A stretch of 64,000 nucleotides of DNA from Escherichia coli (lineage in GTDB: Bacteria > Pseudomonadota > Gammaproteobacteria > Enterobacterales > Enterobacteriaceae), in assembly GCF_048403405.1 (NCBI RefSeq), contig NZ_CP183129.1; one strand, given 5' to 3'. The position numbers are program-made. This document shows, in pieces, positions 61,601 to 64,000 of the stretch; position 1 is the first letter of the stretch; each line of letters starts with the position of its first letter.

Positions 61601-64000
61601 CTACCAGGCAGTAGAAATGAACGCCAAGGAAGGCTATTTAATTCTCTTTTCAATGGCTGCAATTATTGCTTTTCCTGATGTTTCAGGAGATTTTGTAGCC
61701 ATATAAGACGAAAAAATCATGTCGGTCATTCTTTCATAACTTACTATTTCCCACTTAGCCAATGCATGGGACAGTTTGTAGTTGTCATCAGTTAGTGCCC
61801 TTATGGAATTTTTTAAGTGTTTATTCTCTTCTGTTAATCGCGCAATTTTTGTATCAATTTCATGTGAGCGATCTAATTCCTTAACCTGTTTCTTGAGGGC
61901 AGCTAACCCTGCATATAGTACGCAACAGGATATCCCAAGAGCGAGTACAACTATTTCTAACACACCAACCTCCTTAGTTTTGAGCAGGATACCAGATGAT
62001 AATGTGTAGTTGGAGTAGCGCGGTTGTAATGCAAGCATTTTGTTTTAGCTTTATGCTTGCTTGTATGTGTGTACAGTGTATATAATGCAAGCATACATCA
62101 CAACAAAGGTGCTTGCATTATGACTGAAAAGAAAAGTGGCGAAGGGAAAGCTAAGGGCGGGATCGCTCGCGCAAAGTCGCTGACTAAAGAGCAGCGTTCT
62201 GAAATAGCAAAGAAAGCAGCTGCTGCAAGATGGAAAAGTAAGATTCTCAGGGCAACTCATCGTGGTAACTTTTTAGATGATTTTGGCATTGATGCTGAAT
62301 GTTATGTACTGGATGACGAGTCGAAAACTGTCGTTGTTACGAAAACTGGATTATCTCAGTTGCTAGGGATTGGTGAACATGCCAGGGATTTAGATCAACT
62401 GCTTGGCGCTCAGTATATGAGCAAATACCGAGATCTAGAATTGCAGCGAAAAATGGAAAATCCCTATAAATTTCAACTTACTTCGAAGTCTAAAACCGTT
62501 CATCAAGCGTTAGGTTATGACATTACAGCAATTGTTGATATTGGTAGGGCACTAATAGAAGCCAAAGATAATGACGATCTACCACAATCACGGTTAAAGG
62601 CAGCCGCCGCAGCACAGAGACTTATTAATGCCTCCGCTAAGGCGGGAATTAAGGGGGTTGCGTATGCGCTTGCTGGTTATCGTCCAGAAGTTCAGGCTGT
62701 CATTGACGAGTTCAAAGCGTTTGTTCGTGAAGAGGCTCGTCAATATGAAAAGGAATTTCCAGATGAGCTATACGAGGAGTGGTATCGACTGTACGGCCTG
62801 AATAGGCCAGAGAAAGGACGGCCTATTCGTTTTGGGCAGCTAACCAACATGCAGATATACACCCCGCTAGCAAAGAGTAAAGGTAAAATCCTTGAACAAA
62901 TTAGAGCCAGCCGAGACGAGAACGGAAAACAATCTGATAAGTTGCATCTGTTCCTTTCTGAAATTGGTGTCAAGGCTTTGCGTCAGCATATCGGTAAGCT
63001 TCTTGGTGTCGCAGCGATGAGTGAGACAAGAGAAGAATACGAAAAAGGAATAGAAAAGGTTTTCGGAAGAATGAAACCAGAAATCTAATTATGAAACCCA
63101 CCGTCAGGTGGGTTTTTTGTACAAATCCTTCAGCGTATCAAACACCATCTTCTTAACAAGTTCAGACTGCTCATCAGCGATGCGTTCCGCATCGTCTCGA
63201 TAGCCTGAAATTTTGGATGGCTTTGATACAGCATCAGTCACTATCTGAACTAATTCTGAATTAAGAGAGCGGCCATTGGATTTGGCTCGCTGTTTTAGTT
63301 TTTCCTTTAATTCGTAAGGTAGCCGCAGATTAAATTGCGGGTCATCTCTTCCCATTCTTGATGCCTCACTTTTGTAAGTGGATCGGCATCATATGATCTA
63401 CTGGTTATATCCACAATAAGACCACTGTGGTCTCAATGACGCATTGCCGTAGCCATGCTGCGGCGATTCCTTGTATCTGGAGCAAATTAAATGACAGACA
63501 TTACAGCCAATGTTGTAGTGAGCATGCCTTCGCAACTCTTCACTATGGCGCGTTCTTTTAAAGCCGTAGCCAATGGCAAAATTTATATCGGAAAAATTGA
63601 CACTGACCCGGTAAATCCTGAAAACCAGATTCAGGTTTATGTGGAGAATGAGGATGGTTCTCACGCTCCTGTATCGCAACCAATCATCATTAACGCTGCT
63701 GGTTACCCGGTATATAACGGACAGATTGCCAAGTTCGTAACTGTGCAAGGCCATTCTATGGCTGTTTATGATGCGTATGGTGCGCAGCAGTTTTATTTTC
63801 CTAATGTGCTGAAGTATGACCCTGATCAGTTTCAGAAGAGGTTGGCATCCTTTGATGATGGTGATGGGGATGAATTAGTGTCGGTGAAACAACCATTCCC
63901 CGGAGCAGCAAATCAAACTCAACACCAAAAGAACCAACAAATCATTGATGTTCTTGACTTCGGTGCTCATCCATCGAATGCTGACAATAAAGTAGCTCTG

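What the first reader, a model, noticed from the sequence alone, without database searches (positions are those of the whole stretch)
63104..63490. Mnt repressor present without arc or ant
In P22 Mnt represses the arc-ant operon. Here mnt is followed after 135 bp by the tailspike gene, with a perfect AGACCACTGTGGTCT palindrome in between and no arc or ant. Mnt may control tailspike expression or the upstream 322-aa gene instead.
Basis: partly seen in the sequence, partly recalled or inferred. Interest (0 to 1): 0.4.

Follow-up and report, generated by a model that had tools for sequence, protein, structure and literature searches.

The report
Orphan Mnt repressor beside tailspike gene
A P22-like prophage keeps the Mnt repressor gene and its DNA binding site but has lost the arc and ant genes it normally controls; this layout is already described in phages ST64T and L, and here it looks functional, self-regulating and unlikely to drive the tailspike gene.

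Summary
It lies 135 bp from the tailspike start (63491), with the perfect palindrome AGACCACTGTGGTCT at 63419-63433. The 64-kb window has no arc, ant or sar.

The layout is not new. Published genome papers describe mnt-only "ant morons" in ST64T, ST104, Para1 and phage L. I found it in 78 IMG/VR stretches and 112 of 5,426 complete E. coli genomes.

What the analysis adds:
- The palindrome is the positional homologue of P22 Omnt, with symmetric changes that covary perfectly with His6 to Gln in Mnt.
- The central base is free, and the half-sites and Pmnt hexamers are conserved.
- mnt is under strong purifying selection (dN/dS 0.06-0.10).
- The rightward Pant promoter has decayed, so nothing promoter-like faces the tailspike gene.
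- The repeat array upstream of the 322-aa P63C gene is unrelated to the operator, and it is near-identical in prophages carrying other Mnt classes.
- Complete mnt-arc-ant modules of the same operator class exist in ES18-like siphophage contigs.

Best reading: a functional, autoregulated orphan repressor, possibly kept as trans-acting immunity against Ant-carrying phages. Its biological role remains untested.

The parts
63104..63355 (-). mnt: 83-aa Mnt-family ribbon-helix-helix repressor, the 'Q6 class' (mature N-terminus GRDDPQFNLRLP). It has an N-terminal DNA-binding domain and a C-terminal tetramerisation domain.
   Evidence: ORF. Pfam Arc and Repressor_Mnt. PDB 1MNT and 1QEY. dN/dS 0.06-0.10.
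63093..63122 (.). Bidirectional terminator-like hairpin (AAACCCACC-GTCA-GGTGGGTTT, then a T-run on the + strand). It lies between the P63C gene and mnt, and the last mnt codons (KKPT*) form one arm.
   Evidence: Sequence. Folds: -16.2 kcal/mol on + (z -3.9) and -14.2 on - (z -3.3). The scan missed it because the stem extends into the T-run.
63388..63416 (-). Inferred Pmnt: -35 TTGTGG (63416-63411), a 17-bp spacer, and -10 TATGAT (63393-63388). The inferred start is near 63381.
   Evidence: It is positionally homologous to the annotated P22 Pmnt. It is the best-scoring promoter candidate in every orphan spacer at 10.7-11.8 bits. Both spacer variants keep the hexamer pattern T-A-x-x-A-T and TTG. 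Not shown experimentally.
63419..63433 (.). Mnt operator (Q6 class): AGACCAC-T-GTGGTCT, centred about 45 bp upstream of the inferred Pmnt start.
   Evidence: It aligns with the annotated P22 mnt operator. It covaries perfectly with Mnt residue 6 across 80 loci. The half-sites vary in 0-2 of 30 distinct sequences (outermost base of the right half-site: 6), whereas the centre differs from the commonest base in 21 of 30. It is the only match in the window.
63383..63411 (+). Vestige of Pant: TCGGCA-17-TATATC, at the position of the P22 TTGACA-17-TATATT.
   Evidence: Alignment. Score 4.2 bits against 16.8 for P22 Pant. The second hexamer varies freely among loci.
63359..63391 (.). Conserved inverted repeat in the mnt leader (TGATGCC...GGCATCA with inner CACTT/AAGTG). 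Function unknown.
   Evidence: Folds on both strands. It is conserved in all orphan loci, including those at 64% Mnt identity, and is absent from P22 and from the complete modules.
63443..63467 (+). Conserved hairpin just upstream of the tailspike ribosome-binding site, shared with P22-like phages that do carry arc and ant.
   Evidence: Fold of -16.6 kcal/mol. The sequence is shared with the ant-gene 9 spacers of P22, epsilon34 and 611R6.
63491..64000 (+). Tailspike gene, N-terminal head-binding domain, cut by the end of the window.
   Evidence: Pfam Head_binding, E 1.8e-67.
62029..63088 (+). Neighbour, not part of the Mnt unit: the P63C-domain gene (62120-63088) with its own upstream array. 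The array has four ATGCAAGCAT-type repeats at 62029-38, 62053-62, 62085-94 and 62109-18, around a perfect TATAAT at 62081-62086.
   Evidence: Pfam P63C. Array and its conservation beside other Mnt classes. Only 2 of 61 orphan loci have this neighbour.

Best explanation
This is a functional orphan Mnt module: the mnt gene, its promoter Pmnt and one cognate operator. It is what remains of a secondary-immunity (immI) region whose Pant promoter, arc, sar and ant have been lost.

**Inferred mechanism.**
- Mnt is made from Pmnt in the lysogen.
- By homology with P22 Mnt, it forms a tetramer through its C-terminal domain.
- It binds the single palindrome AGACCAC-N-GTGGTCT, which sits 2 bp upstream of the Pmnt -35 hexamer, centred near -45.
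- Binding there sets the level of mnt's own transcription (autoregulation). The sign of this regulation is unknown.

**What Mnt probably does not do.** It has no promoter to repress towards the tailspike gene. The tailspike gene is reached by late-operon transcription that reads through the terminator at 63093-63122 and runs antisense through mnt. [quoted passage not shown] That antitermination by the phage's late-gene regulator is what carries it through is from my own knowledge of P22, not from a paper read here.

**Why the protein is kept.** This step is inferred and is the weakest. The likeliest reason is trans-acting immunity: shutting off Pant-ant on incoming phages of the same operator class, so that their antirepressor cannot inactivate the prophage's main repressor.
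For: **Identity.** Both Mnt domains match Pfam and the solved P22 structures.

**The operator is real.**
- It aligns with the annotated P22 operator.
- In 80 IMG/VR loci, Gln6-type Mnt pairs with an AAGACCAC-N-GTGGTC-type site (exact in 55 of 61; the other six differ by one base). His6-type Mnt pairs with AGGTCCAC-N-GTGGACCT in all 14 loci that have a P22-like spacer.
- The half-sites are nearly invariant, the central base is free, and the sequence just beyond the operator varies.
- The 2-bp spacing (TA) between operator and Pmnt -35 is the same in four specificity classes.

**The gene is under selection.**
- dN/dS is 0.06-0.10 at dS 0.5-0.6 between the E. coli and Salmonella forms.
- mnt is intact in 59 of 61 loci.
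- Where it is broken (L054), the operator is mutated too.

**There is no rightward promoter.**

**There is a single target.** Only one operator-like site occurs in the window, which covers the P22-like prophage from about 28.6 kb to the tailspike gene.

**Trans targets exist.** Six IMG/VR contigs carry complete modules of the same operator class: a Gln6 Mnt-like gene, TTGACA-17-CATTAT, the same operator, arc and ant. The one checked (L264) lies within the tail-gene region of an ES18/SPN3UB-like siphophage.
Against: - No binding, transcript or phenotype data exist for any orphan Mnt. Nothing here shows that Pmnt is active.
- The Pmnt score (10.7 bits) does not stand out from shuffled sequence on its own (95th percentile 12.0). 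It rests on positional homology.
- In another E. coli P22-like lysogen (Kapi1, which has a complete immI), mnt transcripts were below detection (PMC12922286).
- From my own recollection of the P22 work, which I could not retrieve, Mnt affects Pmnt only indirectly, by silencing Pant. If that holds here, a dead Pant leaves operator conservation unexplained.
- Complete modules of this operator class are rare (6 of 86 IMG/VR stretches). None was found in 5,426 E. coli genomes. E. coli ant-carrying P22-like phages use other classes. The proposed trans target is therefore scarce where the orphan is common.
Confidence: 0.55

Rival explanations
1. One reading: Mnt represses a residual rightward promoter in the spacer. 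The tailspike gene is then silent in the lysogen and is expressed from this promoter once Mnt is diluted or lost.
For: - The operator lies between divergent mnt and tailspike genes, and the scan finds no terminator-like site in the spacer, although a stable hairpin without a T-run lies at 63443-63467.
- Operator conservation needs a cis function.
- If Mnt acts on Pmnt only through Pant, as I recall for P22, then a conserved operator implies a live rightward promoter.
Against: - Both Pant hexamers are degraded. The -35 change to TCGGCA is present in 27 of 30 distinct orphan spacers and in L172 and L245 at 64% Mnt identity; four variants differ by one base.
- The -10 position varies freely: TATATC, TGTATC, TGCATC, TACATC, TATAAC.
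- The best rightward score is 4-6 bits, below the shuffled median, and the tool scan finds nothing.
Confidence: 0.13
2. Mnt together with Pmnt tunes how much late-operon transcription reaches the tailspike gene. The mechanism would be a bound-repressor roadblock, or collision with leftward Pmnt transcription. In effect it is a tailspike dosage control inherited from the ant moron.
For: - Late transcripts must cross the terminator, antisense mnt and the operator to reach gene 9.
- Villafane et al. (PMC2629481), citing Adams, Brown and Casjens 1985, state that the P22 ant moron affects read-through into the tailspike gene and that Mnt and Arc may take part.
- The orphan module always abuts the tailspike gene, or a tailspike-swap scar.
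Against: - P22-like phages with no ant moron at all (Sf6, per PMC2629481; BTP1, inferred from PMC7067206) still make virions.
- The module persists where an HNH gene or about 290 bp of scar separates the operator from the tailspike gene.
- I found no published test of this idea for any orphan module.
Confidence: 0.15
3. The module is a decaying, functionless remnant of immI. This is one of the two options offered for phage L in PMC8022706.
For: - arc, ant, sar and Pant are gone.
- Occasional decay is seen: two loci have a stop at codon 53, one has lost mnt but kept the operator, and there are a few Cys substitutions.
Against: - dN/dS is 0.06-0.10 at dS about 0.5.
- 59 of 61 genes are intact.
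- The operator half-sites are conserved while adjacent bases vary.
- The same architecture is kept from 60% to 100% Mnt identity, in both Salmonella and E. coli phages.
Confidence: 0.07
4. Mnt regulates the upstream 322-aa P63C gene through the 62027-62120 repeat array.
For: Proximity only.
Against: - The array has no Mnt half-site, even at 3 mismatches.
- The same array and gene (97-99% identity) sit beside the P22-type and the 611R6-type Mnt.
- Only 2 of 61 orphan loci have this gene.
Confidence: 0.02

Closest known systems
mnt-only 'ant moron' of Salmonella phages ST64T, ST104, L, SE1, ST160 and SPN9CC, and of E. coli phage Gally
   Same: - The order is the same: gene 16, a variable gene, mnt (leftward), a 135-146 bp spacer, then the tailspike gene. 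There is no arc or ant.
- The window's spacer is about 95% identical to the ST160 and phage L spacers, by direct comparison of the sequences.
- The window's mnt is nucleotide-identical to Gally's.
- The layout is described in PMC2629481 (Fig. 3 text) and PMC8022706.
   Different: - The left neighbour here is a P63C-domain gene, which is rare among these loci (2 of 61).
- The window combines the E. coli-type mnt with the Salmonella-type spacer.
P22 immI region (mnt, Pmnt/Pant, Oarc, Omnt, arc, sar, ant)
   Same: - The Mnt protein has the same two domains. The C-terminal half is nearly identical.
- Pmnt is homologous.
- The operator is at the same position and with the same spacing to the Pmnt -35.
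- The location is the same: between gene 16 and gene 9.
   Different: - There is no Pant, Oarc, arc, sar, ant or ant terminator.
- The recognition strand carries Gln6 in place of His6 (PQFNLR, the same as in Arc).
- The operator half-site is AGACCAC rather than GGTCCAC.
Complete Gln6-class immI modules in ES18/SPN3UB-like siphophage contigs (L180, L221, L224-L226, L264)
   Same: The recognition strand is the same (ARDDPQFNLRM), and so are the operator with its flank (CAATAAGACCACGGTGGTCTCA) and the operator-to-Pmnt geometry.
   Different: - They have a good Pant (TTGACA-17-CATTAT), arc and ant.
- Their Mnt C-terminal domains are different.
- They sit in a siphovirus tail-gene region rather than next to a tailspike gene.

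Membership tests
Mnt repressor (P22 Mnt; Pfam PF03869 + PF11423) | N-terminal ribbon-helix-helix (Arc-like) DNA-binding domain | tested here: met
   Pfam Arc, E 2.8e-22, residues 3-50. 1MNT, E 2.8e-34, aligned over residues 3-77.
Mnt repressor (P22 Mnt; Pfam PF03869 + PF11423) | C-terminal coiled-coil tetramerisation domain | tested here: met
   Pfam Repressor_Mnt, E 2.2e-18, 28/28 profile positions. 1QEY, E 3.1e-12, residues 53-83.
Mnt repressor (P22 Mnt; Pfam PF03869 + PF11423) | Base-contacting residues of the N-terminal strand (Arg2, His6, Asn8 and Arg10 in P22 Mnt, from my own knowledge of the Knight and Sauer work) | tested here: inconclusive
   Arg2, Asn8 and Arg10 are kept. His6 is Gln. 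The change covaries with the operator, which points to altered rather than lost specificity.
Mnt repressor (P22 Mnt; Pfam PF03869 + PF11423) | Symmetric operator next to its own promoter, at the Omnt position | tested here: met
   Alignment with the annotated P22 operator. Conservation and covariation.
Mnt repressor (P22 Mnt; Pfam PF03869 + PF11423) | Sequence-specific binding to that operator as a tetramer | not testable with these tools
   Needs a gel shift or footprint with purified protein.
immI secondary immunity region (mnt-arc-sar-ant) | Antirepressor gene ant downstream of Pant | tested here: not met
   No tblastn match to two Ant types anywhere in the window.
immI secondary immunity region (mnt-arc-sar-ant) | arc gene and Arc operator inside Pant | tested here: not met
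   The only Arc match is the cross-hit on mnt. No small ORF fits in the 135-bp spacer.
immI secondary immunity region (mnt-arc-sar-ant) | sar antisense RNA | tested here: not met
   Rfam sar scores 97.8 bits in P22. No match in window 61000-64000 at E<=1.
immI secondary immunity region (mnt-arc-sar-ant) | Strong rightward promoter Pant overlapped by the Mnt operator | tested here: not met
   4.2 bits here, against 16.8 in P22 and 12.7 in L224. No site. The scoring matrix is approximate, with frequencies taken from memory.

The most novel reading that the evidence does not exclude
The orphan Mnt would be a long-lived, stand-alone prophage function rather than a leftover. Either it is an 'anti-antirepressor' immunity gene that protects the prophage's main repressor from Ant delivered by superinfecting phages of the same operator class. 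Or it is a repressor re-used to set tailspike dosage. In either case immI would exist as a set of heterospecific Mnt/operator alleles (at least four classes seen here) that can be kept without their cargo.
Probability: 0.3. Interest if true: 0.45.

Novelty: already known. Interest (0 to 1): 0.2.

Why it matters
For phage biologists this touches a small open question that the phage L genome paper raised explicitly: is the lone mnt a relic, or has it a new job? The sequence evidence here argues that it is functional. The gene shows strong purifying selection, its operator co-evolves with it and is conserved, and its promoter is retained. At the same time its classical target promoter is gone.

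That makes the question directly testable. A mnt deletion in an ST64T, L or E. coli lysogen could be challenged with phages that carry an Ant of the same operator class.

The Gln6/AGACCAC versus His6/GGTCCAC pairing is also a natural example of changed specificity in a well-studied ribbon-helix-helix repressor.

As a genome-scan hit, however, it is an ordinary instance of a documented arrangement.

Tried and rejected
- **Mnt regulates the P63C gene.** Rejected on the evidence.
- **A second Mnt site elsewhere in the prophage.** None found at up to 3 mismatches.
- **ant moved elsewhere in the window.** No match to two Ant types, a 281-aa protein encoded beside the second Ant (L180) or the Kapi1 nin-region antirepressor.
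- **Alternative rightward promoters in both spacer variants.** Nothing scores above the shuffled background.
- **Genome-contig scan for the operator.** Three unrelated hits only, so it said nothing about hosts.
- **The 14-base operator scan of viral contigs.** I repeated it with a 18-base pattern.
- **Complete Gln6-class immI in E. coli genomes.** Not found. The hits were the ant C-terminal domain or a different Mnt class.
- **Papers on P22 tail protein expression, Mnt tetramer binding and ST64T.** Not held in the library.
- **BTP1 and Kapi1 transcriptome papers.** Read, but neither concerns an orphan mnt: Kapi1 has a complete mnt-arc-ant locus, and the BTP1 paper does not mention mnt.
- **PDB entry 9PIO (Arc-family chain).** It comes from a ClpXP protease study and is irrelevant here.

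Full report
**Observation**

The minus-strand ORF at 63104-63355 encodes 83 aa. It matches Pfam Arc (E 2.8e-22) and Repressor_Mnt (E 2.2e-18). It also matches the solved P22 Mnt N-terminal domain (1MNT, E 2.8e-34) and tetramerisation domain (1QEY, E 3.1e-12).

The tailspike gene starts at 63491, and its N-terminus matches Pfam Head_binding over the full model. The spacer between the two genes is 63356-63490, which is 135 bp. The palindrome AGACCACTGTGGTCT lies at 63419-63433.

The 64-kb window contains no Arc other than the cross-match on Mnt itself. It has no P22-type or second-type Ant and no Kapi1-type antirepressor. Rfam finds sar in P22 but not here.

A 7-N-7 palindrome alone is not remarkable, since the window holds 9 against about 3.9 expected. 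The significance of this one comes from homology and conservation.

**Setting**

The window holds a P22-like (Lederbergvirus) prophage from about 28.6 kb to its end, preceded by a second, GER2-like prophage. The locus lies in the variable region between the injection gene (P22 gene 16 homologue, 59773-61614) and the tailspike gene. Villafane et al. call this region the "ant moron" (PMC2629481).

**The layout is already known**

megablast finds mnt directly followed by the tailspike gene in ST160, SE1, ST64T, phage L, SPN9CC, Gally and others. Their annotations show spacers of 135-146 bp and no arc or ant.

[quoted passage not shown] The module is found in 112 of 5,426 complete E. coli genomes and in 78 of 86 IMG/VR stretches that carry the operator.

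**The palindrome is the Mnt operator of a different specificity class**

Aligned with the annotated P22 region, the palindrome falls exactly on Omnt. P22 reads ATAGGTCCACGGTGGACCT and the window reads ATAAGACCACTGTGGTCTC. The changes are symmetric, at two positions of each half-site.

The window's Mnt differs from P22 Mnt mostly in the N-terminal DNA-binding half. His6 becomes Gln, which gives PQFNLR, the same strand as in Arc. The literature places Arc/Mnt specificity in this short N-terminal region (Knight and Sauer 1989; Raumann et al. 1995; both as cited in PMC3413123).

Across 80 IMG/VR Mnt loci the pairing is perfect:
- All 61 Gln6 proteins sit beside AAGACCAC-N-GTGGTC or a one-base variant of it.
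- The 14 His6 proteins with a P22-like spacer all sit beside AGGTCCAC-N-GTGGACCT.

In 30 distinct orphan spacers the half-site bases vary in 0-2 sequences (the outermost base of the right half-site in 6). The central base differs from the commonest one in 21 of 30. The bases just to the right of the operator vary in 10-14.

This is the only operator-like site in the window, even at 3 mismatches.

**Gln6 Mnt is always an orphan in P22-like phages, and it is under selection**

None of the 61 Gln6 loci has arc or ant. All 18 assessable His6 loci have ant.

Between the E. coli and Salmonella (ST160-type) forms, dS is 0.49-0.61 and dN is 0.04-0.05, giving omega of 0.06-0.10. Of the 61 genes, 59 are intact.

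Decay is occasional and tends to be coupled:
- Two loci have a stop at codon 53, and one of them (L054) also has a mutated operator.
- One locus (L104) has lost mnt but kept the operator.

The architecture persists down to 60-64% Mnt identity. This argues against a decaying relic.

**Promoters**

A leftward promoter sits at the position of P22 Pmnt. It reads TTGTGG-17-TATGAT in the window and TTGAGG-17-TAAGAT in the commoner E. coli spacer. In every orphan spacer it is the best candidate, at 10.7-11.8 bits. P22 Pmnt scores 14.4 bits.

The rightward Pant has lost both hexamers, and the best rightward score is 4-6 bits. That is below the shuffled median of 8.1, against 16.8 for P22 Pant and 12.7 for Pant in a complete module of the same class. 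The scoring matrix uses base frequencies from memory and is approximate. The tool's own scan finds no promoter in the spacer.

The operator edge lies 2 bp (TA) from the Pmnt -35 hexamer in four specificity classes. That places its centre near -45 from the inferred start at about 63381.

**The 322-aa gene**

It is a P63C-domain gene. It has its own array of four ATGCAAGCAT-type repeats around a perfect TATAAT at 62081-62086. No Mnt half-site occurs there.

The same gene and array, at 97-99% identity, lie beside a P22-type mnt-arc-ant in E. coli TW05614 and beside yet another Mnt class in phage 611R6. Only 2 of 61 orphan loci have this neighbour. Mnt control of this gene is rejected.

**Origin, and a possible trans target**

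Six IMG/VR contigs carry complete modules of the same class. Each has a Gln6 Mnt-like gene with a different C-terminus, TTGACA-17-CATTAT, the identical operator with its flank, arc and ant. The one checked (L264) lies in the tail-gene region of an ES18/SPN3UB-like siphophage.

Similarity between these modules and the orphans ends 2-3 bp to the right of the operator, so the operator was retained precisely. No such complete module was found in E. coli genomes. E. coli ant-carrying P22-like phages use other classes.

A mosaic joint lies inside mnt. The C-terminal half has dS 0.39 against P22, while the N-terminal half is saturated.

**Mechanism**

*Shown by sequence:*
- a two-domain Mnt;
- one conserved, co-evolving operator;
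- a retained Pmnt;
- a lost Pant, arc, sar and ant;
- a stable terminator hairpin at 63093-63116 between the P63C gene and mnt.

*Inferred:*
- Mnt binds the palindrome as a tetramer and autoregulates Pmnt.
- Tailspike expression depends on late-operon read-through.
- The protein is kept because it silences Pant-ant of same-class phages in trans.

The last step is the weakest, because such phages are rare in the data. The rivals are a residual Mnt-controlled promoter for the tailspike gene (0.13), modulation of late read-through (0.15), a functionless relic (0.07) and control of the P63C gene (0.02).

**Verdict**

This is a correct observation of a documented arrangement. The biological role of orphan Mnt remains a small, now sharply testable, open question.

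Noticed in passing
window 62029-62118: There are four ATGCAAGCAT-type repeats in two inverted pairs, flanking a perfect TATAAT (62081-62086) just upstream of the P63C-domain gene. 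The array is 97-99% identical in prophages with three different Mnt classes. It looks like a self-contained operator/promoter unit whose regulator is unknown.
   Followed up: partly
window 63359-63391: An inverted repeat (TGATGCC...GGCATCA with inner CACTT/AAGTG) lies in the mnt leader and overlaps the Pmnt -10 and the mnt Shine-Dalgarno sequence. It folds stably on both strands (z about -4.2 and -4.3). It is conserved in all orphan-mnt loci, even at 64% Mnt identity, but is absent from P22 and from the complete Gln6-class modules. Unexplained.
   Followed up: partly
window 63443-63467: A hairpin (GCCGUAGCC-AUG-CUGCGGC, -16.6 kcal/mol) lies just upstream of the tailspike ribosome-binding site. 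The sequence is shared with the ant-gene 9 spacers of P22 (where it is duplicated), epsilon34 and 611R6. The CUS-3 record labels this zone 'bsq1; boundary sequence'.
   Followed up: no
window 63104-63355 compared with L004 (P22) and L087 (E. coli TW05614): A mosaic joint lies inside mnt. The C-terminal tetramerisation half is near-identical between Mnt classes (dS 0.39 against P22), whereas the N-terminal DNA-binding half and the operator have been exchanged as a unit (dS saturated).
   Followed up: partly
L004, L087, L224, L268-L271, L006: immI regions come in several Mnt/operator specificity classes: His6 with GGTCCAC; Gln6 with AGACCAC; ARNDPQFNVRMP with AATAGTAGTACGGTGCTATCA (ETEC1730, phage N7); and further classes in 611R6 and Salmonella phage Oslo. 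The operator-to-Pmnt spacing is constant in the four classes compared.
   Followed up: partly
L137:8100-8250, L186:990-1100 (also L187-L190): In high-GC phage contigs, Mnt-like repressors (MSREDPQFKLRMP) sit next to three tandem GGACCAC-N-GTGGTCC-type palindromes. The genes around them are different from those here.
   Followed up: no
L015, L035, L049-L056, L064; L032; L089:2857-3598: Scars of tailspike replacement lie downstream of the operator. Several loci keep a truncated ATGACAGATATT... start followed by about 270 bp of AT-rich DNA and a new tailspike gene. L032 has an IS1 insertion in the tailspike gene. E. coli MB50 has an HNH endonuclease gene inserted at this point.
   Followed up: partly
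L054:3001-3252, L064:3001-3252, L104:7100-7300: Decay of the orphan module is rare. Two loci have a stop at mnt codon 53, and L054 also has a mutated operator (AAGATCAC). One locus keeps the operator and the leader but has lost mnt.
   Followed up: yes
window 20000-29400, 28600-64000 and 44971-45126: The window holds two adjacent prophages: a GER2-like element up to about 29.4 kb and the P22-like prophage from about 28.6 kb. tRNA-Asn and tRNA-Thr genes lie inside the P22-like prophage; in phage Kapi1 a tRNA-Asn gene lies just downstream of the late antiterminator gene.
   Followed up: no
window 61634-62038 (-): A 134-aa ORF lies between the injection gene and the P63C gene. It has only a weak sub-threshold DivIC-like match. 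It is also present in phage 611R6 and E. coli MB50. Function unknown.
   Followed up: no
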